Virus record (IMG/VR): IMGVR_UViG_3300045988_161343
Length of the DNA stretch: 64,000 bases
Direction: 5' to 3' (one strand)
Source: a virus
Below the pieces are notes generated by a model, which worked only from the letters and a program-made list of their open reading frames with translations, ran no database searches and was not told where the DNA came from. Both the position numbers and the translations under genes were made by a program. Shown here in pieces: positions 1,697 through 48,720 of the stretch. Position 1 is the stretch's first letter. Every line of letters begins with the position of its first letter.

Positions 1697-2266
1697 ATGT
1701 TTGGCATTTATAAAATAACAAATAAATAGAATAATAAAATTTATATAGGTAAATCTAAAGATATAGAAGATAGATGGATTTATCATACTTCTCATTATAA
1801 TGACTCCAAAGAATGGGATAAAAATTTATATAAAGCTTTTAGAAAATATGGTATAGATAATTTTAATTTTGAAATTATCGAGTCAATGGATGAAGAAACT
1901 TATAATAAATTTGGGAATAATAGAGAACAATACTGGATTATCTATTATGACTCTTTTAATAATGGGTATAATGAAACACCAGGCGGAGATGGCGGGTATA
2001 ATGTAAGTGCTGTAAAAACAAATTCTAAATTAACTAAAGAAGAAGTTATTCAAATTAGAACAATGTATAATAATTGTAATATCTGCGTATCTGATGCTTA
2101 TGAGCTATTTAAAGATAAAATTACAAAGAGAGGGTTTCAAGCAATATGGTTAGGTCAAAATCATAAAACTATTATGCCCGAAGTTTTTACTGAAGAAAAT
2201 AAAAAGAAACATAATTATTTAGAACGACAAAGAACAGGTAGGCTAAGGCAGGAAAGAAAAAAATGA
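1697..2266 (+). mobile_element. free-standing GIY-YIG homing endonuclease (189 aa, 1 TAG inside the GIY-YIG module)
   Basis: RBS gaggagggatgcttATG; GIYKITNK-TAG-NNKIYIGKS...R...H.. pattern typical of GIY-YIG (I-TevI-like); C-terminal part is ORF 1886..2266; TGA stop overlaps the polymerase ATG (ATGA). Confidence 0.75.
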
Positions 2267-5200
2267 ACACTTATTTTAATTGTCATAACCATACTGATTA
2301 TTCGAACCTCCGTTTACTGGATTGTATAAATAAACCAGAAACTTTAATTGATAAAGCTATTGAATTAGGACTTTCGGGAATTGCTATCACAGATCACGAA
2401 AGTCTTTCTGCTCATATGACAGTAAATCAATATGCTAAAAAAATCAAAGAAAAATATCCAAATTTTAAAATAGCATTAGGCAATGAAATTTATTTAACTG
2501 ATGATAGAAGCACAGGACAAAAGTATTACCATTTTATTTTAATTGCTAAAGATGCTATAGGATATCGAGCATTAAAAGAATTAAGCTCAATTGCTTGGCA
2601 AAATTTATATGTTGATAGAAAAATGGAACGTGTTCCACTTTTAAAGAATGAATTAAAATCAGTAGTAGAGAAATATAAAGGACATTTAATTGCCACTACT
2701 GCATGTATTGGTGGAGAATTAGGTACTTGCCTTTTAAAGGCTGTAGAATATAAAGAACAAGAGAATAATTATGAATTATATCAAATTTTAAAACAAATAG
2801 ATACTTTTCTTACCTTCTGTCAAGATTTATTTGGTGAAGATTTCTATTTAGAGATTGCTCCATCGACCGCGGCAGATCAAAAACTTGTAAACCATATGAT
2901 TTATAAAATCGGTCATAAATATGGAATTAAAGTAGAAGTTGCTACCGATAGTCATTATTTAACAAAAGAAGATAGACCAATCCATAAGGCTTATCTTAAT
3001 TCAAAAGATGGAGAACGAGAAGTTGACAAATTTTATGAATTTGCTCATTTAATGACTTATGATGAAGTCTTTAAATTAATTGAACCTTGTTTTATTTACT
3101 TAGATATTGAAGAACAACCAGAAGAAATCGCAAAAGAAATTTTAAATAATACTCTTGAAATCCAAAATAAAATTGAAGATTTTTCGCTTGAAAGAAAACA
3201 AATAATTCCAAAAGTAGAGGTAACTGATTATCCTCAATCATTAACTGGTTGGTATGGTGAGCGTGAAGAGAAATATCCTGTTTTATGTAGCTTATTAATG
3301 AGCAACAATCCTCAAGAACGTTATTGGGTTAATGAATGTTATATGTCTTTATTGGAAAAGATGTATAATAAAAGTATTTCAGATGATAAGTTAGAAATTT
3401 ATTTAAGTCGTCTTGAAACTGAAGCTGATATTATAAAAGATATTGGTGAAAAATTAGATGACTGCCTTTTTGCTTATTTTAATACTTTTAAACATTATAT
3501 TGATTTGTTTTGGAATTGTGGCTCGATAGTAGGTCCAGGACGTGGTTCGGCCACTGGCTTTTTATCTAATTATTTGTTAGGTATTACTCAGCTTGATCCT
3601 ATAAGATGGGGTCTTCCTTATTGGCGTTTCTTAAACAAAGAACGTGCTGAATTACCTGATATTGATATTGATTTGGCTCCTTCAAAACGTCCAGCAATTT
3701 TTGAAGCTATTCGTAAAGAGCGTGGAGAGTTAGGTTTAATTCAGGTCGCTACATTTGGTACTGAAACTACTAAATCTGCTATTCTTACTGCTTGTAGAGG
3801 TTATAGGTCTGATAAATATCCAAATGGTATTGATGTAGATGAAGCTCAATATATGTCCTCTCTTATTCCACAAGAACGTGGATTCTTATGGGAAATTAAT
3901 GATGTTATTTATGGTAATGAAGAAAAAGATAGAAAGCCTGTTAAAACATTTATTAATAAAGTAAATGAATATCCAGGGCTTCTTGATATAATTATTTACA
4001 TTGGTGGTATCGTTAATAAACGTTCTTCTCATGCTTCTGGTGTTATTCTTTATGGCGATGATCCATATGATACAGCGGCATTTATGAGAACGCCTAGTGG
4101 CAGTTTAATTACTTGTTGGGATTTACATCAAGCTGAAGCAGCAGGTGATACGAAATATGATTTCCTTGTTACTGAAGCTTCTGATAAAATTATCACTTGT
4201 TATGAATTATTATTAAAGGCAAAAGAAATTCCTAACTTATCCTTAAGAGATTTTTATAATCAATATATTCATCCAGAAGTAATAGATACAACTGATCAAA
4301 AAATTTGGGATCATCTTGCCGCCGGAGATGTATTAGACTGTTTTCAATTTTCTACTGGTGTAGGATTAGCCATTGCTAAAAAATTAAAGCCACAAGATCC
4401 TATGGAAATGACCGCGGCTAATGCTATGATGCGTCTTATGTCTGAAAAAGGTAAGGAATCACAGCAAGATAGATTTTATCGTATTCAGCATCAAGGTATT
4501 CAAGCATTTGATCAAGAAATGAAACAACATCATTTGCCGCAAGAGCTTATTGATAAATTCCATAAGCATTGTGATAAATATTATGGTTGTTGCCCTTTAC
4601 AAGAGCAAATGATGGAAATCCTTATGGACATAGCACACTTTACATTGGGAGAAGCGAATTCTGCCCGTAAAGTTGTTGCTAAAAAACAAATGGCTAAAAT
4701 TCCTCAATTAAAAGAACAGGTATTTAGCCGTTTTGATAATAAAAATGATGCAGAATATTTTTGGGAAACGGCAGTAGCACCACAATTAGGATATGCGTTT
4801 TCATTAAATCATAGTCTACCTTATAGTTTTGTGGCTATTCAAATGATTTATTTTGTTATTCATTATAATCCTATCTATTGGAATTGTGCTTGTTTGATTG
4901 TTAATAGCGGTTCTTTAGAAGATAATAGCGAAGAAGAAATCGTAGATATTTATGATCCTGAAGCAGATGATTTAGCCAATGGTGTTACTTTTGAAGATTT
5001 GCCAGATAAAAAATCAAAAGTAAGAAAAACTAATTCTACTGATTATGGAAAGATTGCTAAGGCTATTGGAGACATTCGTAAAGCTGGTATTCAAGTAAGT
5101 CTTGCTGATATTAATAAATCAGAATTTAGTTTTATTCCTGATGTTGAAAATAATCAAATCCTGTTTGGCTTAAAAGGTATGCTAAATGTTGGTGATGATG

Positions 5201-6267
5201 TAGTTAAAACTATTATTGAAAATAGACCTTATAAATCCCCAAGAGATTTTTTAAATAAAGTTAATCCTAATAAGCAAGCAATGATTTCACTTATTAAAGG
5301 TGGAGCATTTGATCATATGATGGATAGAAAACTTTGTATGGTCTGGTATATTTGGGAAACTTGTGATAAAAAGAAAAATCTTAATCTTCAAAATTTAGCT
5401 ACTTTAATGAAATTCAATCTTCTTCCTGCGGATACTCTTGAACGGCAGCAAGCTTTACACATTTATGAATTTACTCGTTATTTAAAACAAATTTGTAAAT
5501 ATGATAAAGTTTATTACAAATTAGATGATAGAGCTATTGATTTTTTACAAAAAATTGATAAAGATAGTTTAATCCAAAATAAAGATTCTAATTTTTATTT
5601 AAATATTAAAGATTGGAATGATAAGGTCTATCAAGGTTGGATGGATATTTATCGTGAACAAATTGCTGATAATAAAGAAGAAATCTTAAATAAATTAAAT
5701 GAAATTATATTTAAAGAAGACTGGAAAAAATATTGTCCTAAAGTAAATTATTCAGCTTGGGAAATGGAAGTATTATGCTTCTATTATCATGAACATGAAT
5801 TGGCTCAAGTCAATCAAAATAAATATGGGTTTGCCGATTTTTACAGTTTACCTGAAGATCCAGTAGTAGAAAGAAGTTTTGTTAAAGCTGGAAAAACAAT
5901 AAATATTTATTATTTATCTAAATTATGTGGTACTTGTATTGCTAAAAATAAAAATAAAAGTATTGTAACAATTCTTACTCCGACAGGAGTAGTAAATGTA
6001 AAATTCAGAAAAGAATATTTTACATTATTCGATAAACAAATTTCTCAAAAACAACCTGATGGAACTAAAAAAATTATTGAAAAATCTTGGTTTAATCGCG
6101 GTAATATGATTGTGGTTCAGGGTATTCGCTCAGGCGATGATTTTATTGCTAAAAAGTACGCCTCAACTTCTGGTCATCAACTTTATCATATTGATACTAT
6201 TCAATCAAATGGAGATTTAATTTTAAGAAGTGAACGATATCAAGGAGTAGCAGAAGATGAAGAATAA
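2263..6267 (+). CDS. dnaE: DNA polymerase III alpha subunit (DnaE-like, N-terminal PHP domain), 1334 aa, no TAG codons
   Basis: PHP-domain motifs at N-terminus (CHNHTDYS, ITDHESL), polymerase palm motif GPGRGSATGFLSNYLLGITQLDP; uninterrupted in standard code. Confidence 0.85.
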   Translation: MNTYFNCHNHTDYSNLRLLDCINKPETLIDKAIELGLSGIAITDHESLSAHMTVNQYAKKIKEKYPNFKIALGNEIYLTDDRSTGQKYYHFILIAKDAIGYRALKELSSIAWQNLYVDRKMERVPLLKNELKSVVEKYKGHLIATTACIGGELGTCLLKAVEYKEQENNYELYQILKQIDTFLTFCQDLFGEDFYLEIAPSTAADQKLVNHMIYKIGHKYGIKVEVATDSHYLTKEDRPIHKAYLNSKDGEREVDKFYEFAHLMTYDEVFKLIEPCFIYLDIEEQPEEIAKEILNNTLEIQNKIEDFSLERKQIIPKVEVTDYPQSLTGWYGEREEKYPVLCSLLMSNNPQERYWVNECYMSLLEKMYNKSISDDKLEIYLSRLETEADIIKDIGEKLDDCLFAYFNTFKHYIDLFWNCGSIVGPGRGSATGFLSNYLLGITQLDPIRWGLPYWRFLNKERAELPDIDIDLAPSKRPAIFEAIRKERGELGLIQVATFGTETTKSAILTACRGYRSDKYPNGIDVDEAQYMSSLIPQERGFLWEINDVIYGNEEKDRKPVKTFINKVNEYPGLLDIIIYIGGIVNKRSSHASGVILYGDDPYDTAAFMRTPSGSLITCWDLHQAEAAGDTKYDFLVTEASDKIITCYELLLKAKEIPNLSLRDFYNQYIHPEVIDTTDQKIWDHLAAGDVLDCFQFSTGVGLAIAKKLKPQDPMEMTAANAMMRLMSEKGKESQQDRFYRIQHQGIQAFDQEMKQHHLPQELIDKFHKHCDKYYGCCPLQEQMMEILMDIAHFTLGEANSARKVVAKKQMAKIPQLKEQVFSRFDNKNDAEYFWETAVAPQLGYAFSLNHSLPYSFVAIQMIYFVIHYNPIYWNCACLIVNSGSLEDNSEEEIVDIYDPEADDLANGVTFEDLPDKKSKVRKTNSTDYGKIAKAIGDIRKAGIQVSLADINKSEFSFIPDVENNQILFGLKGMLNVGDDVVKTIIENRPYKSPRDFLNKVNPNKQAMISLIKGGAFDHMMDRKLCMVWYIWETCDKKKNLNLQNLATLMKFNLLPADTLERQQALHIYEFTRYLKQICKYDKVYYKLDDRAIDFLQKIDKDSLIQNKDSNFYLNIKDWNDKVYQGWMDIYREQIADNKEEILNKLNEIIFKEDWKKYCPKVNYSAWEMEVLCFYYHEHELAQVNQNKYGFADFYSLPEDPVVERSFVKAGKTINIYYLSKLCGTCIAKNKNKSIVTILTPTGVVNVKFRKEYFTLFDKQISQKQPDGTKKIIEKSWFNRGNMIVVQGIRSGDDFIAKKYASTSGHQLYHIDTIQSNGDLILRSERYQGVAEDEE

Positions 6268-6520
6268 AATTGATTATGATGAATTATAGGATTTGTTAAA
6301 AACCCATCAACATATTGAAATTAGAGGAACAATTTTAATTAAATTTGAATAGACTCCTTATCTTAGAGTAATTATAAGAGAGTTAAATGGAAATGATTAT
6401 TGGATGGTAGATACTCCAGATATCTTATGCCTTTTAACATAGTTTTTAGGATCGTGTTCTTATAATTGTTGTAATGGTAAATATTGTTTTTAGTCTTTTA
6501 ATAGAAGGAATAATAAATGA
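6257..6520 (+). CDS. hypothetical small protein (about 87 aa, 4 TAG)
   Basis: ATG overlapping the polymerase 3-prime end; frame closed by TGA overlapping the ATG of the next gene (ATGA at 6517); Cys-rich C-terminus. Confidence 0.35.
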
Positions 6521-7086
6521 ATAATAAAAAATATCAATTAGTCGCACTCATAGGTAAAGCCGGTTCAGGCAAAGATACTATTTTAAAAGATGTAGTAAAA
6601 GCTTATGAACTACCTATGAATATTGTTGTTTCTTATACAACTCGTCCAATGCGTGAAGGAGAGACAGAAGGAAAAGAATATCATTTTATATCTGAAGAAG
6701 ATTTTAAGCAAATGATAAATAATAATCAAATGCTTGAATATGTTCAATTTAATAATTGGTGGTATGGAACTGGCATTAAATGTTTAGCTGATGATAAAAT
6801 TAATATAGGTATTTTTAATCCTTCTGGAATTAGATCATTAATCAATTTTCCAGAAATTGATTTACGGATATATTATATTCATGCTTCTGACAAACAACGT
6901 TTCCTTCGTCAATTAAATAGAGAGGAATACCCTGATATTAAAGAAATTATTAGACGTTATTCTGCTGATGAAGAAGATTTTAAAAATATAAATTTTGATA
7001 ATATGCAAATTTTATTTAATGAAACGGAAAGAGATAGATTAAAATGCTGTGATATAATTACAGATTATGATTGGTTTTGGTACTAA
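6517..7086 (+). CDS. guanylate kinase-like / deoxynucleoside monophosphate kinase (189 aa, no TAG)
   Basis: P-loop GKAGSGKDT and TTRPMREGETEGKEYHF resemble the guanylate kinase family. Confidence 0.6.
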   Translation: MNNKKYQLVALIGKAGSGKDTILKDVVKAYELPMNIVVSYTTRPMREGETEGKEYHFISEEDFKQMINNNQMLEYVQFNNWWYGTGIKCLADDKINIGIFNPSGIRSLINFPEIDLRIYYIHASDKQRFLRQLNREEYPDIKEIIRRYSADEEDFKNINFDNMQILFNETERDRLKCCDIITDYDWFWY

Positions 7087-7177: not shown

Positions 7178-9445
7178 ATGTATATAATTAAACGTGATGG
7201 TACAGTTGTATTATTTGATAAAAATAAAATAATTAATGCTATTAATAAGGCATTTATAGAAGTCGATGGATAGTTATATGAAAATGATACAGCTACTGAT
7301 ATTGCCAATGATATTGAATCTTGGATGAATAAATGTCCAGATGGTAGTATTGAAGTAGAAGATATCCAAGATATAATTGAAGATTATTTAATGTAGTCAG
7401 AACGACGTGATGTTGCTCGTGCTTATATTAGATATAGATATAAAAAAGAAGTAGCTCGATAGAAAAAAGATGATTTTATTCAAGCTATTAGAAAAAAATT
7501 AGATGGTAAAGATATTAAAAATCAAAATGCTAATGTAGATGAAGCATCATTCGGTGGCCGCATTGGTGAAGCTAGTAGTGTTGTAACGAAACAATTAGCT
7601 TTAGATTATATTGTATCTCCTATGACACGCAAAAATCATTTAGAAAATATAATTTATACTCATGATTTAGATGCTTATTATGTTGGTTCTCATAATTGTT
7701 TAAGTGTACCTTTTGATGATTTACTTGCTAAAGGATTTAATACACGCTAGACAGATGTACGTCCAGCAGGTTCAGTAAATACAGCTTTTTAGTTAGTAGC
7801 TGTTATTTTCCAGATTCAAAGTCTTTCTCAATTTGGCGGTGTAAGTGCTACTCATCTTGATTGGACTATGGTTCCTTATGTTCGTAAATCTTTTTATAAG
7901 CATTATCGTGATGGTATGAAATACTTATGTAATTGTAATTGGAATTTAGATAACTATTTAGAAGATAGCGATACCTATAAAAAAATCATAGATATTCCAA
8001 TTAATGATTATTCAGCTTATCTAAATGAAGCAGATGATGTTGGAGATTTTGATAAAGTATATCAATATGCTATGGATATGACTTTAAAAGAAGTTCATCA
8101 AGCAGTTGAAGGTATGTATCATAATCTTAACACATTACAATCACGTTCTGGTAATCAATTACCTTTCACATCTATTAATTATGGTACTTGTACTCTTCCA
8201 GAAGGAAGAATGATTACTAAAGCACTTTTAGATGTATCTATTGAAGGTATTGGCAAATTACATAAAACATCTATTTTCCCTTGTGGTATTTTCCAATGCA
8301 TGAAAGGAGTTAACCGTGAACCAGGTGACCCAAATTACGATTTGTTTAAACTCGCACTATAGTCCACCGCCCAAAGATTATATCCCAACTATGCAAATGT
8401 TGATTGGTCAGGGAACGCTGGATATGACATCAATGACCCCCGCACCTATTTTTCTACAATGGGATGCAGAACAGCCAATGGATACGATATTAACGGTTTC
8501 GGTTAGTTAAAAGATGGCCGTGGTAATATTTGTCCAGTAACTATTATTCTTCCTACTTTAGCTATGATTGCTAAAAAAGAATGCGAAGAAGAAGGGCAAG
8601 AAGAAGATATTATTCCAGTATTTATGGCTTTATTAAATAGAAAAATTAATGAAGCTCGCATTCAATTAATGGAGCGTTTTGATTGGATTTGCTCTCAAGA
8701 TCCTAAGTCTGCTAAATTTATGTATGAAAATAATTTAATGGCTGGTTATATTCCAGAAGAAGGAATTAGAAGTGCCCTTAAGCATGGCACATTAGCCATT
8801 GGACAAATTGGTTTAGCAGAAACTCTTTAGATTCTTATTGGTAAAGACCATACAACTAAAGAAGGTATGGAATTAGCAAAACGAATTGAACAAATGTTTA
8901 AAGATTACTGTGCAAAAGCAAAAGAACAATTTAAACTTAATTTTGGAGTTTATTACACTCCTGCTGAAAATTTATGCTATACGGCAATGACTAAATTCAA
9001 AGAGAAATATGGTATTATCCCTAATGTCTCTGATAAAGAATTTTTTACTAACAGTATTCATGTTCCCGTTTGGAAAAAAATGTCACCTTTTGATAAAATT
9101 GACATTGAGAGCCAATTGACTGGTTATTCTTCTGCTGGATGTATTACCTATGTAGAATTAGACTCTACTGTAAAGCATAATATTGATGCTCTTGAACAAA
9201 TTGTTAATTATGCAATGGATAAGGATATTCCTTATTTTGCAGTAAATGTGCCTAATGATACTTGCCTTGACTGCGGATATTGTGATGAATTTAATGATAA
9301 GTGCCTTGAATGTGGCAGTACTAATATTCAATAGCTACGTCGTGTAACTGGCTATTTAACTGGAAATTATAAAACTGCTTTTAATTATGGTAAACAGAAA
9401 GAAGTAGAAGCACGAGTAAAGCATACGGGGTAGATGGAATGATAT
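7178..9445 (+). CDS. nrdD: anaerobic ribonucleoside-triphosphate reductase NrdD (about 755 aa, 9 in-frame TAG)
   Basis: ATP-cone start MYIIKRDGTVVLFDKNKI; conserved PGDPNYDLFKLAL, STMGCRT, DGRGNICPVTI, glycyl-radical RRVTGYL near C-terminus. Fragments 7868..8362, 8564..8830, 8867..9334 are one frame joined through TAG; ends at TGA. Confidence 0.85.
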
Positions 9446-9782: not shown

Positions 9783-10460
9783 ATGAATTATTCTAAAAAA
9801 CCTTTAAGAAAGCATTAGAAAATAAAAGATAAATTAGAAAAAGCTACTGAAGTATTAAATAAAAAAATTGACTCGGAATTAGAAGCAATTATAAAAATAA
9901 TATTTTCTTGGATAGCTAATGATGAAAAAATTAATACAAAAGAGCATCGAGCTACTCTAATAAATTTATTTTATAAGGCATTAGAAAATCTTTATTCTGA
10001 AATTAATATATAGTTAGGAAAGATTTATAAAACAGTCGCTCCTTTTAATTTAAAAGATATAACAGACTTAACTTTTCAAGAAGATGGAAAAACATTAGAT
10101 GAACGAATTACTAAATATTTAGATGATTTAGAAGAAAAAAGATTATCTGGCGATTTTCCAGATAATTTAAAAAACTTCGGCGCAAATATGTATTCTCGTC
10201 TATTAAATAATGAAGGTAAATATTTATTTACTCATTTAATGGAAATGAAAATAAAACCTGTAGCTTCAATACTTGTAATTGAAACAGGAACTTGCGATGA
10301 TCTATGCGGTGAATGGGCTGGAGAATACCCCGTAGGAGAAGATGTTCCTCTTCCTCCTTACCATACTAATTGTTAGTGTTCTGCTTATTATATTGAAACT
10401 GATGATGAAGATGATGTTAATGATTTAGATTTAGAAGTGGAGGAAATAAAGGATACATGA
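9783..10460 (+). CDS. hypothetical protein with C-terminal PPYHTNC-TAG-C motif resembling the phage Mu F / SPP1 gp7 head-morphogenesis family (about 225 aa, 3 TAG)
   Basis: Single frame ATG 9783 to TGA overlapping nrdG ATG; includes ORF 10188..10376; the HxNCxC motif is recalled from memory of that family, so low confidence. Confidence 0.4.
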
Positions 10461-10945
10461 GATACGCAGGAATTATAAAAAATGATATTGCCGCAGCTCC
10501 GGGAGTATGTGTCTCCTTTTTCACCCAAGGTTGCCCACATCATTGTTTTGGATGTCATAATCCTGAAACTTGGGATTTTGAAAAAGGTAAAGAATTTACC
10601 AATGAGACTTTTGGAGAAATATTTCAAGCACTTCAAGCTAATGGCATTCATAGAGATTTTTGTATAATGGGTGGTGAACCATTATGTGAACAAAATCAAT
10701 TACTCACTCTACTTCTTATTAATACAATTAAAGAAAAACTTCCTGATACTAAAATTTATGTTTGGACTGGATATTATTATGACGATTTAATTAAGCAAAT
10801 TACTAATGGTAAGCTTCAAGAAATTCTTAAAAAAGCTGATGTATTAATTGACGGTCCATATATTCAGTCTCAAAGAGATATTACACTATCAATGAGAGGT
10901 AGTAAAAATCAAAATATCATAAATTTAAAGGAGATTAATAAATGA
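10457..10945 (+). CDS. nrdG: anaerobic RNR activating protein NrdG (radical SAM), no TAG
   Basis: CPHHCFGC radical-SAM cysteine motif; small size; adjacent to nrdD. Confidence 0.8.
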   Translation: MRYAGIIKNDIAAAPGVCVSFFTQGCPHHCFGCHNPETWDFEKGKEFTNETFGEIFQALQANGIHRDFCIMGGEPLCEQNQLLTLLLINTIKEKLPDTKIYVWTGYYYDDLIKQITNGKLQEILKKADVLIDGPYIQSQRDITLSMRGSKNQNIINLKEINK

Positions 10946-12006: not shown

Positions 12007-12555
12007 ATGAGTATTTATTTTGAAAAAGTAAGTAAATATAATGATTGGGATTTACCAATACCAGAACGAAAAACGAAATATAGTGCAGGTTATGACTTTG
12101 CATCTGCTGAAGATGTTGTAATTCCTTCATATACGCATATTATAGAAGCTTTTAAAAATGGAGCAGCCACTAATGATATTATTTCATTAAATGATATGGC
12201 TAAAATTACTAAAGAGCTTAAGTTAAAACCTACACTTGTTCCTACTGGAATGAAATGCCATATGGAAGATGGTCAATTTCTTGAGTTATCTGTTCGTTCT
12301 TCTTTACCTTTAAAACATTGGATTATTCTTGCTAATGGAGTTGGCATTATTGATGCTGATTATTATAACAATCCTGATAATGAAGGACATATTTATTTCC
12401 AATTAATTAATCTTTCTCCTTTTGATATTGAAATTGCCAAAGGAGATATTATCGGTCAGGGTGTTATTCGAAACTACCTTATTACAGATGATGATAAGGC
12501 TGAAGGCACAAGAATTGGTGGATTTGGTTCAACCAGTAAGGACGTTAATAATTAA
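12007..12555 (+). CDS. dut: dUTP diphosphatase (dUTPase), no TAG
   Basis: Motifs AGYDF, GIIDADYYNNPDNEG, RIGGFGSTSK. Confidence 0.85.
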   Translation: MSIYFEKVSKYNDWDLPIPERKTKYSAGYDFASAEDVVIPSYTHIIEAFKNGAATNDIISLNDMAKITKELKLKPTLVPTGMKCHMEDGQFLELSVRSSLPLKHWIILANGVGIIDADYYNNPDNEGHIYFQLINLSPFDIEIAKGDIIGQGVIRNYLITDDDKAEGTRIGGFGSTSKDVNN

Positions 12556-12597: not shown

Positions 12598-13080
12598 ATG
12601 AATTTTTTATTTTTAGACTTATCCACTAAATCTACTGGATATGCTATATCAGATGATAAAGGTAAATTAATTACTTATGGTTTACTTACTGCCTCTTCTT
12701 CTAATAATATAAGTCGTATCCAAAAGATACAAAGTGGAATTATAGAATTAGTAAAACAATATAATATAGAAAAATTAATTGCTGAAGATGTTCATCCAGA
12801 AGCTTATGGTTATTCAGATACTGCTCGATTACTTATGTGGCTTCAAGGGTCTATAGTTCTTGGTGCTCATAGTGTAAATAATAATATAAACTCCAAAAGC
12901 ATAGAATTTATGCAAGCTAGTGAATGGCGAAAAAATTTAGGAATTAAAACAGGCCGCGGCATTAAACGTGAAAATCTTAAACCTCTTGACATAAAATATG
13001 TAAAAGATACATATGGTATTGAAGCAAATGATGATGTCTGTGATGCTATATGTTTATATACTGCATATTTTAAATCATAG
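12598..13080 (+). CDS. RuvC-like Holliday-junction resolvase, no TAG
   Basis: N-terminal FLFLDLSTKSTGYAI and C-terminal DDVCDAICL resemble RuvC catalytic Asp motifs. Confidence 0.7.
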   Translation: MNFLFLDLSTKSTGYAISDDKGKLITYGLLTASSSNNISRIQKIQSGIIELVKQYNIEKLIAEDVHPEAYGYSDTARLLMWLQGSIVLGAHSVNNNINSKSIEFMQASEWRKNLGIKTGRGIKRENLKPLDIKYVKDTYGIEANDDVCDAICLYTAYFKS

Positions 13081-13188
13081 TAGGATGAATTAAATTGGGA
13101 ATGACGGGCAATTTTATACAATTATATAATTCTTTCTTTCATTTATAATGAGAAAGAGCGACAAATTCATGTCGGGAGGATTATATAA

Positions 13189-16385: not shown

Positions 16386-16793
16386 TTATTTTGTTTCTGT
16401 TGGAGTAATTTTATTTGTACTAACTTCTTTTTCAATTTTAGAAGAAATATATTCATTGAGATCTCCAACAGCAGAATTCAAATATTCAATAGCATCTTGA
16501 CCTAAAATAGCAATTACTTTATTATAAACATCAGTAAATGCTTTTTTCTGCGCTTCGCCATCAAATTTTCCTTGCTGTTTTAATGAATTAACATAAGTCT
16601 AATTCATTGCAATAACACAATCAGTAATTGTATTATCAAGCATATCTAAATATTTTTTAGCTAATTCGCTATCTGTTTGTTGCTTTAAAGCATCTTTTTT
16701 AGATTTAATCCAAGCAACTAAGAATGTCGTTAAAATTCCAAGTAAAGGAATAATACAAATTTGAAATATTTGCGCAATTAATTGAGCATCCAT
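16386..16793 (-). CDS. small membrane protein, possible holin-like (about 135 aa, 1 TAG)
   Basis: ORF 16599..16793 with N-terminal TM (IIPLLGILTTFLVAWI) continues through TAG to TAA; position next to tail-fibre genes. Confidence 0.4.
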
Positions 16794-19704: not shown

Positions 19705-19707
19705 TTA

Positions 19708-20409: not shown

Positions 20410-20420
20410 TATTTACCTCC

Positions 20421-30500: not shown

Positions 30501-30854
30501 TAAATCGCTATATTCTTCTTCTGTATAAGAAGTAGCAGATGCTTTGCCTTCAATAGTTTTTTTCTAAGTAAAATCACCGCCTGGTACTTTTACATATACA
30601 TTAGTTCCTTTAGAATATACATAAGTTAATGTAGCTGGGGCATAAGCACGGAATTTACCTTTTTGATATTCAACAAAATACTCTCCAGTACTGGCATCAT
30701 TTAGACTTATAACTTCAGCAATTATAGTTTTATCAAAAGACAACTCAGCATCACGTGCCCGTGCTATATAATCTATAGTCTCTAATAAGGCATCTGTTAT
30801 TTCTTTTGGCTTTTTTATAGTAGCTAAATATTCTTCTTTTCTATTATAAGCCAT
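27558..30854 (-). CDS. tail protein (1098 aa, about 30 TAG), first gene after the tape measure (distal-tail / tail-tip candidate)
   Basis: ATG 30854 with RBS; ORFs 30564..30854, 29349..29573, 28686..29027, 27876..28148 share one phase; TGA stop at 27558-27560. Confidence 0.45.
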
Positions 30855-30877: not shown

Positions 30878-30905
30878 AATGAGGAGGAAATTAATCCTCC
30901 TCATT
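30878..30905. terminator. hairpin between the tape-measure gene and the next tail gene
   Basis: aatgaggaggaaattaatcctcctcatt, then RBS and ATG of next gene. Confidence 0.4.
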
Positions 30906-36900: not shown

Positions 36901-39900
36901 TTTATCATAAATAGACTATAATTTATCAACAGCACTTTGGTCTATCCAAATTTCACCAGTATCTTTCTTACCCCAAGCACCTTCCATATTCTTTAGCTCA
37001 GGATAAGTATTTAAAATATTAAGAGCTTCTTCATTAGCTTTAGTTAACTATGCACGCCATTCTTTAGTACCAACAGTACATTCATCTAAAGCAGATTTAA
37101 CAGAGCTATAACTATCAAATACTGATTTTAACTATTCAGCTTTATTCTTTGTTTCTTCTAACTAACTTTTAAAACTCTCAACAGCCTATTCAGAACGTTC
37201 AATTTGTTTTTCTATAGTAAAAGACTAAGCTGTATTATATACTTTAACCAATACAGCAATGGCAGCAACTACTGCTCCAATTATTAAAGCATATTTACCC
37301 AAAACAAGTAAAGATTTAGTAAACATTGCATGAGTTGCCGCACCACTAGCCGCTAATTGCTATTCAGCAGTTCCTGCAGAACCAGCAGCTACTCCTAATT
37401 CTTTAAGCTTGGCGGTATAAGCATCAAGACCAGTTTGCATAATTTTAGCTCTAAATCCAGAGCTATTCTCTATCTTTGTCTTTAAAGCTGCCTATAAATC
37501 AGAACCCTATAAAGACCCTCCTAAACCAGTCATTATTGATAAAATATTAGTACCTAGTCCCTTCCAATTAGTTCCAATTTCTTTTAATCCACTAGCTAAC
37601 TAATTTACTCCATTAATTAAAGAAGGAATAGCAAAACTGGCCGAAGTAATACTCTAAGTTAATTTTTCTCCAAAATCTAATTCGCTATTATTTAAAGTAT
37701 CAAACATTCCTTTTAAGCTATTAATTCCAATGCCTAATTGAGAAATACCCTAAAAACTAGAAACTAATCCTTGAGAAAAACTATATATAGATCCTTGACT
37801 AGCTTTTAATTCTGCGTTAAAAGCTTCAATAGCACTCTCATATTTTTCAACCGCTCCTTTGTTCTACAAAAGAGCCTCTTTCTCATTTACGTAATCTGTA
37901 AGACACTATCTTAAAGCATTAGACTAAGCTTTTGTTAATTTTTCTGCTTTAATTTTCTAATTAACATAATTATCAATTTCAAGATTAACGTCTCTTAAAT
38001 TATTAACTTCAGCTAATATATCTTTTCTAAGAGTACCTTTAGCACCATTACTTAGATTAGAATTGTTACCCTATTGAATTAACTAATTTAATTTACTATA
38101 TCTTTGATTATTTAAATCTAATTGACCAAATTGAGAAATAAAATCTTTAAAAGAACCATTTGAATTAATTTTTAAAGACTTTAAATCTTGCATTGTTTTA
38201 TCATTATAAAAATTATCAACAATCTTTTGGCCTTTTTTTAAGTTATTGTCAAAATAAATTACGCCCTTATCTCCACCAAATTTTTTATTATTATCTTCAA
38301 AAATTGTATTGCGAGCATTACGTAAATTGTTATTACTCTAAGTTTGTTGAGCTTCTATGCTTTTTTTAGATTCTATAGCTATTTGTCCATAAGCCTAAGA
38401 AATTTTTAATAATGTCTATAATCTTAATTTATCTGTTTCATTTAACTAATTATTTGCTAGCTATAAATCATAAGAAGCCTCTGCAGCTTTAACCATTGTA
38501 GTTGTTTCTAATTCAACTGAGCCCTATTTTGTTAAATCAGGTTTTTCTTCATAAGTTGTAAAGGTCTTTAAAACATTTATCATCTACTGCTTCATAACCG
38601 CAGCCTAATTTTCAGCAGCTCCGCTGTCAATAAACAAATTGGAAGCCATACGCTGCATATTATTTACAATATCAGGACCGAAGCTTTTTAGCATTAAAGT
38701 AGAAATAACACTTAATACACCAGGCAATCCGCCTAATGAATCAATCAATTTGCTTGTAATATTTAATGTATCACTTAATGTATCATTTAATCCGATAAAA
38801 AATTTATCACTAACTAATTGCTTATAAATTTCTTCAAGAGAAGCTTGTACTCGCTTTTTAGAAGCTTCCCAACTTTCAGCATAAATATCAGCTTGTTCTT
38901 GTAAAGTACCTTCAGAATTTTTAGCCACTCCAACTAGCTCTTTAAAATAATCTTTATTCTCCATAAGATTAACTAATTGAGTGTATTGACGAACACCACC
39001 AACAGTCTATGCAAGAGCCACTTGTTCAGCACGACTTAAACTATCCCACTTATTCATCATTTCATCAAGGATAGTATTCATATCTTTTAACTCACCCTAT
39101 TGATCTTTAATACTAATACCAACTTTTTCAAGGGCTTTAGAATATTTATTTAAATCAGTACCATCTTCAAGAGTTTCTCCAAGAGTCAGACCCTAAATAC
39201 GTGCAAATAAGGTTTTAAGGCTATTACCTACTGTATTCGCACTTTCACGTGTTTTAGCAGTTAATGTAGCTAATGCAGATGTAGCATATTCATAACTAAG
39301 ACCAATAGTATTAGCAACAGATGCGAATTTCTATATACCTTCTGAAATTTCATCAGTACTAGAAGCAGTATACGCACCAAGTTTAGTCATTACATCTGCA
39401 TAATACTCCAGAGATTTGCTACCATCATAGAAGTTATTCCAAACAGCAGTTAACTAATCAGATACTTTAGAAGCACTTTCACCTGCGGCGTTAGCCATTT
39501 TAATAGTAACTTCAGTACGATCAGTAACTTCTTTATCACTTAAACCCTATTGATAATAAATTAAAGAAGCATTAGTATAATTAGTAGTAGTTGTACTTAA
39601 TGCTTGAGCAGCCTTATTAGCTTTTTCAGCAAACTCAGCCATCTAATCATTATTCTATCCAGTAACTATACGAATATCATTTAATGATCTATTTAAATCT
39701 TCTGCATAATAGTAAGCTTTCTATAAAGAACCCTATACTCCATGCATTAAGTTAGATGAAATTTGCCATTTGGCTGTATTAGCTAATGTCTTTTTAAAAT
39801 TATCTAATATAGCGTTAGTTCTTTTTAAAGGAACTTCAGCATTAATAACAGACTATGCTAATGCAACAAATGCTTTATCACCTGTTGGGCCTAGATTCTC

Positions 39901-40212
39901 TAAGTGTGTAGCAAAATCCTAAAGAGTATAACCACTCTAGCTTAAACTCTTTGAAAATTTTGATAAATCTAAACGCCCAGTATTAACATTAGTCGCCTAA
40001 TCTAAAGCAATTTTTAACTCCTAAACTGCTGCCGAGGCTTCATCTATTTCTTTTTTAGTGGCATTAACATCAAAAAATTTAATATTTTTTGTTGCTATCT
40101 AATTCATTAAAGTATCTAATGAACTTTGTAAATCTCGTAATTGCTATTTAGCTTGACCTGTATCAGCTGTAAATCGCATATTAACATTATAATTAGCACT
40201 GTTATTAGCCAT
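30901..40212 (-). CDS. tail tape measure protein, about 3103 aa, about 96 in-frame TAG, no TAA/TGA
   Basis: RBS aaaggagctattttATG at 40212; one phase links ORFs 38605..38964, 36193..36444, 35200..35385, 34192..34392, 33637..34014, 31669..31923 to TGA at 30901-30903; TMP-like N-terminal motif WDSLSRAEQVALA-TAG-TVGGVRQY; Gly-run GGGGGGGG. Confidence 0.65.
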
Positions 40213-42497: not shown

Positions 42498-43583
42498 TTA
42501 AATATCAAAATAGCTGTCGTGCATCGGATCATGGATAGTTTGAGTACGATAGACACTATCATTGTCAATATCTTCAATGATCTGAATTGCAGCAAGTACT
42601 TTCTTAGTAGGATTGAAACGAGTAGTTCCTGGGAAAGCATCAAGCGTGAAAGTGAAAGTCGCAGGATCGCCAGTCGCGGCCATGCTGAAAGTAAAGTTAG
42701 ACTGAATCTTGCAGTTAGGGATTATAAATTCTGCTGGAAGATCAACGCCGTCTTGAGTACGGAATAGAGTAGAAGCTTCAAGATAGAAGTTGCCACCAAA
42801 AGATTCAGCAGTAATTTCAATTTGACAAGTCTTGCTGGCTTTCTCAATATAATAATCAAGAAGAACAACAGAGCCTTCAAAGAGTTCTAACTTATGTTCT
42901 GCACCGGCTTCAGTTTCATCGACGATTTTGTAAGTAGAAGTGATTTCCTTAATTTGAAGACCATAATAAATCTAAGTACCAGCTTTGGCTTTAGTATCAG
43001 CTTCTTCATCAGTGCAGGTCTTATACTTCATTTCAGTTTCATCAAAATAGAACTTTTGAGGTTTTGTTGGCGCCTCTGCCTAACGAATAACTGTAGGAAG
43101 ATAAGGTTCAGTTACTGGCTCATCATTGTCAACTCGCATAGCATAAATATAGAATTCACCCTTATGCGCACCAGTAGTAGTATCAACTTGTTCATATGGT
43201 AAGTTCTTAACAAAAATTTGTACACTCTTTTTATCCTCAGAGAGAGCGACAGCAGTTGTTTTTTCAGTTACATGCTGTTTAATCGTATTCTATTTAGAAG
43301 CATCAATAAGACCTGCTCCAGCAAGAATCATGAAACCTTCAGCAGAAATAAGAGCATCTTCCATAGTGAATGTTAAAGTACGGTCGCCATCCCAAGCTAC
43401 TAAACGAGCATTGCCGCGTCCGCCTTGTGCATATACGGTTGTAGAAGCACCTTCAAGGCTAGAAGTTTTTAATGTATCGAAATAAAGAACTGGTTCGTTC
43501 GCATAGAAAACTTTATTACCAACCTTCATAGGAGCACGAGCTTTTAATACGACATCGCATATCTCACGAACACCAAATTTCAT
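42498..43583 (-). CDS. putative major tail protein (about 361 aa, only 3 TAG, GC-richer)
   Basis: ORFs 43290..43583 and 42498..42683 joined through TAG; RBS aaggaggaaataaccATG; followed by a strong terminator, like an abundant structural gene. Confidence 0.5.
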
Positions 43584-46916: not shown

Positions 46917-47483
46917 TTAACCTTCTTTTACAACGTTATAACGAGGAGTAGTTCTACGACCAGGAGGCGTTGTGGGCTTAGTTTCGGTCTTTACTCTACG
47001 TTCAGGAGCTTTTGGAGTAATTTGTTCATCCTCTGCAGCTTCAGCTTCCTTATTGGCTAATGCTCGATCAAGGTCAAATCCAGTTTTATCCTTAAGAGCC
47101 TTACGCTTATTGTAATCACTCATAGGAAGAGATACAGCATAACTCTTAATCATATCAATAACTCCAATAGGAGCAAAATCAAGGCAGTCAAGGAATTCAT
47201 CAAGAGTTCCTTCGGTAAGAAGCTTAATAACTCCAGCGTCGTCTAAATAATATTCAGGTTCTGTATGAATACCTAATTCTTCTGTAGTTTCAGTATCCAC
47301 AATCTTTAAGAAATTTTCCATTAAAGTGCGGCCTCCGCTAAGATAGGCAAGTTTCTCTAATTCCTCAAAAGGAATTTTCTTAGTTTCTCCAGGGGTAAAT
47401 TCTCTGCGGATACCTTCTTCAGGAATAGTATAAACAACCATTCCAGCACTTCTATTAGTAACTATTAAAATTTTTTTACTCAT
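46917..47483 (-). CDS. structural protein downstream of the capsid gene (about 188 aa, no TAG)
   Basis: RBS aaaaggagaataaaaaaaATG at 47483 inside ORF 46917..47540. Confidence 0.4.
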   Translation of the reverse strand: MSKKILIVTNRSAGMVVYTIPEEGIRREFTPGETKKIPFEELEKLAYLSGGRTLMENFLKIVDTETTEELGIHTEPEYYLDDAGVIKLLTEGTLDEFLDCLDFAPIGVIDMIKSYAVSLPMSDYNKRKALKDKTGFDLDRALANKEAEAAEDEQITPKAPERRVKTETKPTTPPGRRTTPRYNVVKEG

Positions 47484-47548: not shown

Positions 47549-47583
47549 AAAAATATTATATATTAATTTTTAGTTAATATCAA

Positions 47584-48720
47584 TTACGGCTTATCTTCAT
47601 TACCGCCATCAATAGTATCATGAGAACCAGTAATCTGACCAGCATAGTCACGGACCTTACCAGTTACGCCATCAAGATGCCATGTCTTCATATCACCAAG
47701 AAGTTCAGTATCACAATAGCAGCAGATGTTATTAGCTAACATAGCAATAACGCCGACTTTCTTATAAACCTGAATTTCACGGCTACGATCATAATTGGTA
47801 TATTCATCAACAATGGTATTGCCTTCCATAGCAACCTTTACAGGCTTACTATCAGCCCCAGTAGGAATAATCCAAGCATAACCTGGGTCAATGACTTTCT
47901 TTTCATTAGTAGCATCTTCAAAGCCCTGCTCAAGAATAACTACTTTATAGCCCTTATAGGAAGCAAGACGGCCAGTATTCCAAAGCTCATTTTTCATAGC
48001 TTCAGTATAACGCCAAGCATCCTTCGGAATCATACGAACAGCAAATTCATAAGTGCAATAAATAGTAGGAGTACCATAAGCAGAAGCAATCATAAGTAAC
48101 TTATCAAAACCGGGTTCATCAAAACCATTAGCAACTAAACGGTTAGCAGGAGGTAACTGGTTAACAGAAGCCTTTAAAGCACCAGCAATCTCTTTATAGA
48201 TAAGTTCATCCATACCTTCCATGACGATCTGGGTAACAACACCAAAATCGACACGGCCATCAAGGAATTCCTCAAAGCCAATTTGAGTAGCTCCGCCGAT
48301 AGCGCTTGTACGGACTTCAAAGCTTTCTTCAGTCTTACCAAGCTTGAATACTTCATAGATACCAGCTAGGCCGACACGAGTGATGAATTGCTTTGCACGA
48401 GTATTGTTGCTGAACTTTCTACGGAAAATAGGCTTGTCACCCTGTTTAAATGTCTTAACTTCAGCAAACTGATTATATTGCTCTTCAACTTTCTTAGGAA
48501 GAACTTCATCAATAGTTTCCTCAATCATTGAGAAAATAAGGTTCTTATTATCACGATATAAAGAATAAGTTCCAGCAAGTTCATTTAATTCTCTGCGGAG
48601 AGTTTCATTAAGAGCATCATAAGAAAGGCTTTCGCCATTAAAGCTGTAAGCAGTAGGAGTAGAAGGATCAGCCTTAGCGACAGTCTTCATTAATTGAACA
48701 AGATTTTTTCTATCTAACAT
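47584..48720 (-). CDS. putative major capsid protein (378 aa, no TAG, GC-richer)
   Basis: Intact standard-code ORF in the head module between scaffold-like and connector genes, followed by attenuator hairpin; HK97-like assignment is inference. Confidence 0.55.
   Translation of the reverse strand: MLDRKNLVQLMKTVAKADPSTPTAYSFNGESLSYDALNETLRRELNELAGTYSLYRDNKNLIFSMIEETIDEVLPKKVEEQYNQFAEVKTFKQGDKPIFRRKFSNNTRAKQFITRVGLAGIYEVFKLGKTEESFEVRTSAIGGATQIGFEEFLDGRVDFGVVTQIVMEGMDELIYKEIAGALKASVNQLPPANRLVANGFDEPGFDKLLMIASAYGTPTIYCTYEFAVRMIPKDAWRYTEAMKNELWNTGRLASYKGYKVVILEQGFEDATNEKKVIDPGYAWIIPTGADSKPVKVAMEGNTIVDEYTNYDRSREIQVYKKVGVIAMLANNICCYCDTELLGDMKTWHLDGVTGKVRDYAGQITGSHDTIDGGNEDKP

What the first reader, a model, noticed from the sequence alone, without database searches (positions are those of the whole stretch)
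2263..48720. TAG codons are strongly partitioned between genes
Pol III alpha (1334 codons), dUTPase, RuvC-like, NrdG, the kinase and the major capsid protein (378 codons) have no TAG. The major tail protein has 3 and the head protein at 48737-49514 has 1. The tape measure has about 96 (about 38 in its first 720 codons), and the 1000-1200 aa tail proteins have about 30 each. This fits the proposed model of recoding as a timing switch in which suppressor-dependent genes are made only once suppression is established, while the most abundant structural proteins stay TAG-free.
Basis: partly seen in the sequence, partly recalled or inferred. Interest (0 to 1): 0.8.

Follow-up and report, generated by a model that had tools for sequence, protein, structure and literature searches.

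The report
Uneven TAG-glutamine codons in a recoded phage
This gut phage reads the stop codon TAG as glutamine, and it keeps TAG out of its early genes, its DNA polymerase and its most abundant coat and tail-tube proteins while using it freely elsewhere, which is a clear new example of a behaviour already described in other phages.

Summary
With TAG read as a sense codon, the window holds 65 genes and 352 in-frame TAG codons, spread very unevenly (chi2 183 on 62 df; 0 of 5000 permutations reach it). TAG means glutamine: where recoded relatives have TAG, 22 standard-code relatives most often have Q.

In tail genes TAG makes up about 50% of Gln codons, which is what a neutral synonymous codon would reach under this genome's AT pressure. 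TAG is absent or rare in three groups:
- Small + strand genes behind near-consensus sigma-70 promoters: 0 of 99 Gln codons.
- Pol III alpha: 0 of 57 here, and 6 of 825 across 18 recoded relatives.
- Abundant virion proteins across 64 recoded relatives: capsid 6/758, tube 19/605, two head proteins 6/317 and 27/833.

Gene class explains this; GC3 and gene length add nothing once class is included.

The timing-switch reading is only partly supported. TAG share is graded rather than binary. NrdD has 10 TAG while NrdG has none. Capsid avoidance goes with general codon adaptation. No suppressor tRNA was found in about 107 kb of this clade, although relatives carry tRNA(CUA). I rate this a new member of a known kind, closest to phAss-1.

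The parts
2263..6267 (+). DNA polymerase III alpha; 0 TAG in 57 Gln codons
   Evidence: Pfam PHP, DNA_pol3_alpha, finger and HHH_6 domains. Codon counts. Orthologues in 18 recoded relatives carry 6 TAG in 825 Gln codons. GC3 is 0.15 and the Leu TTR/CTR ratios match those of tail genes.
6517..7086 (+). Guanylate-kinase-like gene; 0 TAG in 7 Gln codons
   Evidence: Pfam Guanylate_kin. Family total 6/96.
7178..9442 (+). Anaerobic ribonucleotide reductase NrdD; 10 sense TAG in 33 Gln codons
   Evidence: Pfam NRDD, ATP-cone and Gly_radical. The PDB alignment runs through the TAG positions. Family total 58/435.
10457..10945 (+). NrdG activase; 0 TAG in 10 Gln codons
   Evidence: Pfam Fer4_12 and Radical_SAM. 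Family total 10/126.
12007..12555 (+). dUTPase; 0 TAG in 3 Gln codons (not significant alone)
   Evidence: Pfam dUTPase on the identical contig gene. Family total 9/85.
12598..13104 (+). RuvC-like gene with two sense TAG codons (161-162 of 168)
Evidence: The conserved C-terminal NWE/DWS motif follows the TAGs, and strains show TAG/CAA-CAG polymorphism there. Family total 53/134.
16386..16793 (-). Holin with a single TAG (codon 65 of 135)
   Evidence: PHROG holin phrog_13712, E = 5e-29. TAG position.
16807..30854 (-). Five tail genes (965, 233, 1201, 1142 and 1098 aa) with 21, 8, 18, 27 and 25 TAG; TAG is 47-64% of their Gln codons
   Evidence: TAG/(TAG+CAG) = 0.92 matches TTG/(TTG+CTG) = 0.87 and TTA/(TTA+CTA) = 0.94.
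30901..40212 (-). Tape measure protein, 3103 codons, 113 TAG spread evenly
   Evidence: Pfam PhageMin_Tail on the identical contig gene. Counts and positions.
42498..43583 (-). Tail tube protein (YomU_Tube); 3 TAG in 14 Gln codons
   Evidence: Pfam hit. Family total 19/605, with 49 of 60 recoded genomes at zero.
46917..47483 (-). 188-aa head-module protein; 0 TAG
   Evidence: Family total 6/317, with 60 of 64 recoded genomes at zero. A sigma-70-like site (11 of 12 matches) lies just upstream at 47583-47555.
47584..48720 (-). Major capsid protein (YonB family); 0 TAG in 11 Gln codons
   Evidence: Pfam YonB. Family total 6/758, with 58 of 64 recoded genomes at zero. Conserved Gln columns stay CAG, one mutation from TAG.
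48738..49514 (-). 258-aa head protein; 1 TAG (codon 238)
   Evidence: Family total 27/833.
51120..52811 (-). Portal protein; 8 TAG in 22 Gln codons
   Evidence: PHROG portal phrog_2739. Family share 39%.
53274..55025 (-). Large terminase; 11 TAG in 23 Gln codons
   Evidence: PHROG terminase large subunit. Family share 38%.
56258..57193 (-). Sigma-factor-like gene at the head of the minus-strand structural block; 1 TAG
   Evidence: PHROG sigma factor phrog_5767, E = 3e-45. All 52 recoded orthologues carry 1-7 TAG.
57351..57462 (.). Divergent near-consensus sigma-70 promoters (minus strand 57379-57351, 11 of 12 with TG; plus strand 57434-57462, 12 of 12)
59274..63998 (+). Sixteen small probable early genes; 0 TAG in 43 Gln codons, GC3 0.29-0.59, all ending in TAA or TGA
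   Evidence: Promoters at 58739, 58850, 61898, 63334 and 63617. The TAG-free run continues outside the window, 0/56 in L087 and almost none in L417.

Best explanation
The window comes from a phage of about 185 kb with SPbeta-type structural genes that reads TAG as glutamine.

In genes where nothing opposes it, TAG behaves as a neutral synonymous Gln codon. AT mutation pressure has carried it to about half of all Gln codons. This follows from the mutational path CAA <-> CAG <-> TAG: TAG:CAG then equals the T:C bias seen in Leu codons.

Purifying selection removes TAG from two kinds of genes.
1. Genes that must be readable by the unmodified host translation system, before or independently of suppression. 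These are the host-promoter-driven early genes and Pol III alpha, and more weakly the kinase, NrdG, dUTPase and DnaB.
2. The virion proteins needed in the most copies: capsid, tail tube and two head proteins. Their whole codon usage is shifted toward that of the early genes. Here even slightly incomplete read-through, or a limited supply of suppressor tRNA, would be costly.

Every other late gene carries at least one TAG, including the holin, terminase, portal, a sigma-like factor, the tail genes and the tape measure. These cannot be made full-length until a tRNA(CUA) is active.

Shown here: recoding, TAG = Gln, the graded partition, its independence from composition and length, and its conservation across the family.
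Inferred: the temporal order, the existence of a suppressor tRNA in this phage, and the cost of incomplete suppression.
For: - Recoding and TAG = Gln. ORF coverage rises from 51% to 114% when TAG is sense. At TAG columns, the 22 standard-code relatives have Q in 36% of cases, then E 12% and K 10%.
- Neutral level in tail genes. TAG/(TAG+CAG) = 0.92, against TTG/(TTG+CTG) = 0.87 and TTA/(TTA+CTA) = 0.94. TAG (226) is about equal to CAA (195).
- Pol III has the same Leu and CAA/CAG ratios as the tail genes but 0 TAG.
- Gene class versus composition. Log-likelihood is -95.2 with class, -143.9 with GC3 plus log length, and -94.8 with both.
- Family replication. Pol III 6/825 in 18 recoded genomes at 53-98% identity. 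In 64 recoded genomes: capsid 6/758, 188-aa protein 6/317, tube 19/605, 258-aa protein 27/833, against 22-56% for the other morphogenesis genes, with the 40327-40854 gene in between at 14%.
- Capsid Gln columns stay CAG in 50-81 of 86 sequences, and only 1-2 sequences have TAG at any of them.
- Early region. Near-consensus promoters cluster at 57.4-63.6 kb. There are 0 TAG in 99 Gln codons and no TAG stops.
- Among minus-strand genes, TAG share falls as early-like codon adaptation rises (Spearman -0.65, p = 0.001). Pol III is unadapted (index -0.28) yet TAG-free.
- Recoded relatives carry tRNA(CUA) in their tRNA arrays. phAss-1 has three.
- Published model and related cases: bioRxiv 10.1101/2021.08.26.457843; PMC10607447 lists TerL and the tape measure, but not the capsid or Pol III, as recoded.
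Against: - There are no expression or proteomic data, so early and late classes are inferred from promoters, gene order and function.
- No tRNA(CUA), and no tRNA of any kind, was found in the window or in the roughly 107 kb of this clade that I could read.
- The replication block has no clear logic: NrdD 10 TAG against NrdG 0, RecJ-like 14/24, DnaB 2/19.
- The gene classes used in the regression were partly chosen after seeing the pattern. The family data are the independent check.
- The host and its genetic code are unknown. Hits in genome collections are phage contigs binned into MAGs of many phyla.
Confidence: 0.6

Rival explanations
1. Expression level alone, with no timing. Suppression is present throughout infection but is never complete, so TAG is purged from each gene in proportion to how much protein is needed. 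The early genes and Pol III are simply made in large amounts.
For: TAG share is graded rather than binary. Among minus-strand genes it falls as codon adaptation rises (rho = -0.65). The capsid, tube and head proteins show AAG>AAA and CAG>=CAA. A 2026 preprint on an unrelated crAss-like phage also reports a TAG-free capsid gene and attributes it to translational pressure (10.64898/2026.08.21.746148).
Against: Pol III alpha is the most TAG-depleted gene in the family, yet it shows no codon adaptation (GC3 0.15, index -0.28), and a replicative polymerase is not normally an abundant protein. The tape measure tolerates 113 TAG. By my own arithmetic this needs about 99% read-through per codon for a 32% yield (0.99^113), and 95% would give 0.3%. 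Late suppression must therefore be nearly complete.
Confidence: 0.17
2. Mosaic origin. The TAG-free genes or modules were imported recently by recombination from the standard-code relatives that exist in the same family, and have not yet accumulated TAG.
For: 22 of 86 capsid loci come from relatives with no in-frame TAG at all, and code state is interspersed among clades. The early region differs sharply in composition (GC 37-46%, GC3 up to 0.66). TAG-free genes would move freely between the two codes.
Against: Avoidance is conserved gene by gene across 18 and 64 recoded genomes that are 45-60% diverged in most proteins, which a recent import cannot explain. Pol III has the same GC3 and Leu codon ratios as its TAG-bearing neighbours. 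Capsid Gln columns have remained CAG across the family.
Confidence: 0.08
3. Compositional artefact. TAG density only tracks AT content or gene length.
For: TAG share does correlate with GC3 (rho = -0.54) and with length (rho = +0.38) across genes.
Against: Adding GC3 and log length to gene class improves log-likelihood by only 0.4. Adding class to GC3 and length improves it by 49. Among the 34 genes with GC3 below 0.20, shares range from 0/57 to 25/39. Out-of-frame TAG density in Pol III (2.1 per 100) is the same as in tail genes (2.5-3.4).
Confidence: 0.02

Closest known systems
Code-15 (TAG to Gln) gut phages and the temporal code-switch model (Borges et al., bioRxiv 10.1101/2021.08.26.457843; earlier Ivanova et al. 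2014, cited from my own knowledge)
   Same: TAG is read as Gln. Structural and lysis genes carry in-frame TAG. Early genes are compatible with the standard code. Use of the alternative code is variable in the replication machinery. Standard-code and recoded phages occur within one clade.
   Different: That paper treats genes as recoded or not recoded, and the word capsid does not occur in the preprint text. Here the share is graded, tail genes sit at the neutral level, and the abundant late proteins are TAG-poor. I did not test whether this family is one of their named clades; Jade and Sapphire are of similar size.
Phage phAss-1 and the proposed Phassvirus group (Babkin et al. 2023, PMC10607447; GenBank OQ749652)
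   Same: It is the closest annotated record, at 49% capsid identity. It is a TAG-to-Gln human gut phage with Pol III alpha, NrdD/NrdG and a long tape measure. Of four signature proteins compared, the paper lists TerL and the tape measure, but not the capsid or Pol III, as carrying TAG.
   Different: Its genome is 136 kb, against about 185 kb here. It has two tRNA-Sup(CTA) genes directly upstream of nrdD and a third in a tRNA array. Here the nrdD upstream region has no tRNA, and none was found in about 107 kb. The record annotates nrdD as one full-length CDS, whereas this window's nrdD has 10 TAG.
Bacillus phage SPbeta structural module
   Same: Pfam families built on SPbeta proteins hit the capsid (YonB), tube (YomU), YomV, YomW, YonG and YonD homologues, in one co-oriented block.
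   Different: SPbeta uses the standard code (my own knowledge). Capsid identity to SPbeta-like Staphylococcus phages is only about 26%.
Amber-reassigned crAss-like phage from Egypt (bioRxiv 10.64898/2026.08.21.746148)
   Same: It reports low-amber and high-amber genome domains and notes that the capsid gene shows no alternative codon usage.
   Different: It is an unrelated order (Crassvirales) and a single-genome remark. It offers no family-wide or codon-level test.

Membership tests
Code-15 (TAG to Gln) recoded phage | Conserved genes are broken by in-frame TAG under the standard code and become intact when TAG is sense | tested here: met
   ORF coverage 51% against 114%. NrdD, terminase, portal and tape measure are full-length only with TAG as sense.
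Code-15 (TAG to Gln) recoded phage | TAG positions align with Gln in standard-code homologues | tested here: met
   Q at 36% of aligned residues in the 22 standard-code relatives, then E 12% and K 10%. CAA and CAG are the commonest alternative codons.
Code-15 (TAG to Gln) recoded phage | Phage-encoded suppressor tRNA with anticodon CUA | tested here: inconclusive
   None in the window or from -17.9 to +89.6 kb around it in this clade. It is present in relatives at 75-77% capsid identity and in phAss-1. About 80 kb of the genome could not be read.
Code-15 (TAG to Gln) recoded phage | TAG is not used as a terminator | tested here: met
   All 65 genes end in TAA or TGA. The two candidate TAG stops are followed by conserved protein sequence. 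Standard-code relatives do end 25 of 381 ORFs in TAG.
Temporal code-switch model | Early genes read identically under both codes | tested here: met
   0 TAG in 99 Gln codons and no TAG stops in 32 small + strand genes behind near-consensus sigma-70 promoters. The early status itself is inferred.
Temporal code-switch model | Late structural and lysis genes require suppression | tested here: met
   Holin 1 TAG, terminase 11, portal 8, tail genes 8-27, tape measure 113. Exceptions are the capsid, the 188-aa protein and a 54-aa ORF with 0 TAG.
Temporal code-switch model | Code-change machinery (suppressor tRNA, possibly a release factor or aaRS) is encoded in standard code and expressed before the recoded genes | not testable with these tools
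Temporal code-switch model | TAG-containing proteins appear later than TAG-free ones | not testable with these tools
   This needs transcriptomics, ribosome profiling or proteomics of an infection. The host is unknown.
SPbeta-like phages | SPbeta-type virion module | tested here: met
   Pfam YonB, YomU_Tube, YomV_2nd, YomW, YonG_N and YonD_N on the identical contig genes.
Proposed genus Phassvirus | High nucleotide identity and shared synteny with phAss-1 (its members are 80-86% identical to one another) | tested here: not met
   No megablast match to any phage record. Capsid protein identity is only 49%. This is a related group, not the same genus.

The most novel reading that the evidence does not exclude
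In a recoded phage, each gene's TAG share of Gln codons, measured against the neutral level of about 50%, gives a quantitative record of two separate pressures. One is the need to be translated before suppression exists (Pol III alpha and the early genes). The other is the cost of imperfect read-through for mass-produced proteins (capsid, tube, head proteins). If so, expression timing and level could be inferred for uncultured recoded phages from sequence alone. A sharper version is also open: the TAG-bearing sigma-like gene at 56258-57193 has its own host-type promoter. It could be the step that makes the whole late regulon depend on the suppressor, including the TAG-free capsid gene.
Probability: 0.3. 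Interest if true: 0.55.

Novelty: new member of a known kind. Interest (0 to 1): 0.4.

Why it matters
Stop-codon recoding as a clock for phage gene expression is an attractive model that rests mostly on genome maps. This family offers a clean natural experiment. It has at least 64 recoded and 22 standard-code relatives, a measurable neutral level for TAG, and gene-by-gene departures from that level that are conserved over deep divergence. The data show that the partition is not a compositional artefact. They also show it is more than a two-state switch: the abundant late proteins avoid TAG too, which implies suppression carries a cost. In practice, annotation pipelines must use code 15 for these roughly 185-kb Bacillota-type phages, and TAG share could serve as a sequence-only proxy when no host is in culture.

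Tried and rejected
**Search for the suppressor tRNA**
- ARAGORN on the window found nothing.
- Extensions of the same or 96-99% identical genomes also had none: L090, L136, L137, L087, L412 and L417.
- All 80 capsid loci and 42 Pol III loci that were scanned had none.
- A crude T-loop plus CTA regular expression on the clade's loci found nothing.
- I ran three pattern scans of IMG/VR based on phAss-1 and family tRNA(CUA) sequences. The two specific ones found 24 and 9 contigs, none from the window's clade.
- I tried anchoring on a vWA-like protein that sits next to tRNA(CUA) in a 75% relative. The single-sequence query found only 3 close relatives, and the alignment-based query found no window-clade contig.
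- All collection scan quotas are now used.

**Other checks that led nowhere**
- Rfam at gathering thresholds: no hit in the window.
- Megablast against GenBank phages: no match.
- Host inference from genome contigs: rejected, because the hits are phage contigs binned into MAGs of Mollicutes, Lachnospiraceae, Bacteroidales, Treponema, Methanobrevibacter and others.

**Ideas rejected**
- That TAG-TAG in the RuvC-like gene and the TAG in the AbrB/MraZ-like gene (58226-58453) are true stops. In both cases conserved protein sequence follows the TAG.
- That sigma-70 promoters mark out the TAG-free genes inside the replication block. There are no near-consensus + strand sites there, and fewer matches than in shuffled sequence.


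Full report
**What the window is**

The window is 30% GC and has no tRNA and no Rfam match. Under the standard code, ORFs of at least 100 codons cover 51% of it. With TAG as a sense codon they cover 114%, summed over both strands.

The capsid gene led to ENA and Logan contigs of 185-191 kb. One of them, ERZ27250463:k119_68296, is 100% identical to the window over 21 kb. Its gene calls were evidently made with TAG as sense, since they include a 3103-aa tape measure, and they match mine.

The virion genes hit Pfam families built on Bacillus phage SPbeta: YonB capsid, YomU tube, YomV, YomW, YonG and YonD.

The layout is as follows.
- A + strand replication and nucleotide-metabolism block runs from 1 to 13626. 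It holds a UvrD-like helicase fragment, a GIY-YIG endonuclease, Pol III alpha, guanylate kinase, NrdD, NrdG, dUTPase and a RuvC-like gene.
- A bidirectional terminator lies at 13631-13662.
- A minus-strand block runs from 13670 to 57322. It holds the holin, tail genes, tape measure, tube, head genes, portal, terminase and a sigma-like factor.
- From 57.4 kb onward there are many small + strand genes with near-consensus sigma-70 promoters and intrinsic terminators.

**Checking the observation**

I called 65 genes covering 19,824 codons. They contain 352 in-frame TAG, 477 CAA and 106 CAG. Forty genes carry at least one TAG.

So are the counts of 3 for the tube and 1 for the 258-aa head protein.

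Three points needed correction.
- The tape measure has 113 TAG, with 27 in its first 720 codons.
- The large tail proteins have 18-27 TAG each.
- The RuvC-like gene has two sense TAGs. The conserved C-terminal NWE/DWS motif follows them, and some strains carry TAG-CAA/CAG at that spot.

**What TAG encodes**

IMG/VR holds at least 80 related contigs, with capsid identity of 71-100%. I aligned 16 structural gene families across 86 loci. Sixty-four loci use in-frame TAG. Twenty-two have none at all in 2,565-4,898 aligned codons each (about 4,000-4,900 in all but one short locus).

At columns where a recoded genome has TAG, the standard-code relatives have Q in 36% of cases, E in 12% and K in 10%. 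In other recoded genomes the commonest alternative codons are CAA and CAG. TAG is therefore glutamine (code 15). The standard-code relatives do use TAG as a rare stop, at 25 of 381 ORF ends.

**Is the partition more than chance or composition?**

- The TAG share of Gln codons differs among genes with chi2 = 183 on 62 df, and 0 of 5000 permutations reach that value.
- TAG share does correlate with GC3 (rho = -0.54) and with length (rho = +0.38).
- A binomial model with gene class reaches log-likelihood -95.2, against -143.9 for GC3 plus log length. Adding GC3 and length to class gains only 0.4.
- In tail genes, TAG/(TAG+CAG) is 0.92. The purely synonymous T/C ratio at Leu first positions is almost the same: TTG/(TTG+CTG) = 0.87 and TTA/(TTA+CTA) = 0.94. 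TAG (226) is about equal to CAA (195).
- That is what mutational equilibrium predicts for a neutral codon reached by the path CAA <-> CAG <-> TAG. About 50% is therefore the neutral level.
- Pol III alpha has the same Leu ratios (0.82 and 0.97), the same CAA/CAG ratio and the same out-of-frame TAG density as the tail genes, yet 0 TAG in 57 Gln codons. That is a deficit of about 50 codons caused by selection.

**Family-wide replication**

In 18 recoded genomes with Pol III identity of 53-98%:

| Gene | TAG / Gln codons |
|---|---|
| Pol III alpha | 6/825 |
| Kinase | 6/96 |
| NrdG | 10/126 |
| dUTPase | 9/85 |
| NrdD | 58/435 |
| RuvC-like | 53/134 |

In 64 recoded genomes:

| Gene | TAG / Gln codons |
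|---|---|
| Capsid | 6/758 |
| 188-aa head protein | 6/317 |
| Tube | 19/605 |
| 258-aa head protein | 27/833 |
| Sigma-like factor | 155/691 |
| Portal | 617/1600 |
| Terminase | 432/1142 |
| Neck and tail genes | 36-56% |

Conserved capsid Gln columns are CAG in 50-81 of 86 sequences, and at most two sequences have TAG at any of them. CAG is one transition from TAG. It has therefore been held against the pressure that converted tail-gene CAG to TAG. These relatives are 40-55% diverged in most proteins, so recent import cannot explain the pattern.

**Two kinds of TAG avoidance**

I built a codon index from synonymous usage, excluding Gln codons. It contrasts 16 early genes lying outside the window with the large tail genes.
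- The window's early genes score +0.15 to +0.93.
- The capsid (+0.05), tube (+0.05), 258-aa (+0.02) and 188-aa (-0.04) proteins score highest among the late genes.
- Pol III (-0.28), the kinase (-0.40) and the tail genes (about -0.45) are unadapted.

Among minus-strand genes, TAG share falls as the index rises (rho = -0.65, p = 0.001). The capsid group also uses AAG more than AAA and CAG at least as often as CAA.

So the abundant virion proteins avoid TAG as part of a general translational optimisation. Pol III avoids TAG specifically.

The early region has 0 TAG in 43 Gln codons inside the window and 0 in 56 in the next 10 kb. It stays almost TAG-free out to about 89.6 kb in window coordinates. 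None of the 32 early genes tabulated ends in TAG, so they read the same under both codes.

**How it most likely works**

My best explanation, at confidence 0.6, has two parts. Early genes and Pol III are written to be read by unmodified host translation. A tRNA(CUA) then makes TAG readable, and only then can the holin (1 TAG), terminase, portal, tail proteins and tape measure be completed.

The tape measure's 113 TAGs imply near-complete read-through late in infection. By my own arithmetic, 0.99^113 = 0.32 and 0.95^113 = 0.003. The residual avoidance in the capsid, tube and head proteins implies that read-through still costs something when hundreds of copies are needed.

The temporal order and the suppressor are inferred, not shown. 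The graded shares and the inconsistencies within the replication block show that gene class by time is not the whole story. Those inconsistencies are NrdD 10 against NrdG 0, and RecJ-like 14/24 against DnaB 2/19.

**The suppressor tRNA**

I did not find it for this clade, despite reading about 107 kb (window coordinates -17.9 to +89.6 kb) across identical or 96-99% identical genomes.

Recoded relatives do carry tRNA(CUA).
- A form with a long variable arm sits in the tRNA arrays of the clades at 75% and 77% capsid identity.
- A 71-nt form occurs in another relative at 75% capsid identity.
- phAss-1 has three. Two lie directly upstream of nrdD.

**Comparison with known work**

The phenomenon and the timing model are published. 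The closest annotated relative is phAss-1, at 49% capsid identity. Among the four signature proteins its authors compared, they list TerL and the tape measure, but not the capsid or Pol III, as carrying TAG. A 2026 preprint on an unrelated crAss-like phage remarks that its capsid gene has no TAG.

What I did not find in three full-text searches is a quantitative treatment of three points: the neutral 50% level, the graded depletion, and a family-wide test showing that abundant late proteins avoid the reassigned codon.

**Verdict**

The finding is a new member of a known kind, and I score its interest at 0.4.

Noticed in passing
window 57351-64000, continuing in L087, L412 and L417 to about +89.6 kb: The probable early region has a very different composition: GC 37-46% and GC3 0.3-0.66, against 0.12-0.25 elsewhere. 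Near-consensus sigma-70 promoters lie at 57434, 58136, 58739, 58850, 61898, 63334 and 63617, with hairpin terminators between genes. Its codon usage may be matched to the host, while the AT-rich remainder may rely on phage tRNAs.
   Followed up: partly
window 58480-59270: Two strong promoters (58739 and 58850) are followed by about 300-400 nt with no convincing ORF before the first small gene. This may be a long leader or a small RNA. There is no Rfam match.
   Followed up: no
window 56258-57193 (-) and promoter 57379-57351 (-): A PHROG 'sigma factor' homologue (E = 3e-45) heads the structural block and has its own near-consensus host-type promoter. It carries 1 TAG here and 1-7 TAG in all 52 recoded orthologues, with no universally conserved TAG position.
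   Followed up: partly
window 7178-9442 versus 10457-10945; L090 4425-6167: NrdD has 10 sense TAGs, while its partner NrdG has none. The RecJ-like gene sits at the neutral TAG level (14/24), while DnaB has 2/19. I found no functional logic for this.
   Followed up: partly
window 15542-15778 and 15792-16223 (-): Two small Gln-rich proteins of unknown function have the highest TAG density in the window, at 8 and 11 TAG (10% and 7.7% of codons).
   Followed up: no
TAG-poor genes across the window: In genes where TAG is below about 30% of Gln codons, the remaining TAGs cluster at the gene ends. Seventeen of 31 lie in the first 27% and 8 of 31 in the last 10% (binomial p = 0.01 for the last 10%). 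The 5' part of this result depends on start-codon calls.
   Followed up: partly
L097, L107, L111, L113, L114, L116, L121, L124 (Pol III loci): The Pol III alpha match is about 1.1 kb longer in several relatives, which suggests an inserted element such as an intein or homing endonuclease. The window itself has a GIY-YIG endonuclease gene directly upstream of Pol III (1691-2266), with paralogues in relatives' tRNA arrays.
   Followed up: no
L014-L030, L076-L078, L080, L081: Twenty-two of 86 related capsid loci have no in-frame TAG at all and use TAG as a rare stop (6.6% of ORF ends). They are interspersed with recoded clades at similar divergence, which implies repeated changes of code within one family.
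   Followed up: partly
L265 3842-4131; L150 2404-3090: In two phage contigs found through the tRNA pattern scans, tRNA(cta) has notable neighbours. In L265, which is not in my capsid or Pol III locus lists, it sits next to a tRNA with anticodon tta, a possible ochre suppressor. In L150, whose contig also appears in the Pol III list at 59% identity, it sits next to a phage-borne tmRNA with tag peptide AKPYRLAA.
   Followed up: no
L412 13085-14925 (-): Three AT-rich minus-strand genes, one of them GIY-YIG-like, lie inside the otherwise TAG-free early region of a 98% identical strain. They carry 7, 2 and 2 TAG, so TAG use follows the individual gene rather than the neighbourhood.
   Followed up: no
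L359-L410 (genome-contig hits): Contigs of this phage family have been binned into MAGs labelled Mollicutes, Lachnospiraceae, Bacteroidales, Treponema, Methanobrevibacter and others. This looks like composition-driven mis-binning in public MAG sets.
   Followed up: no
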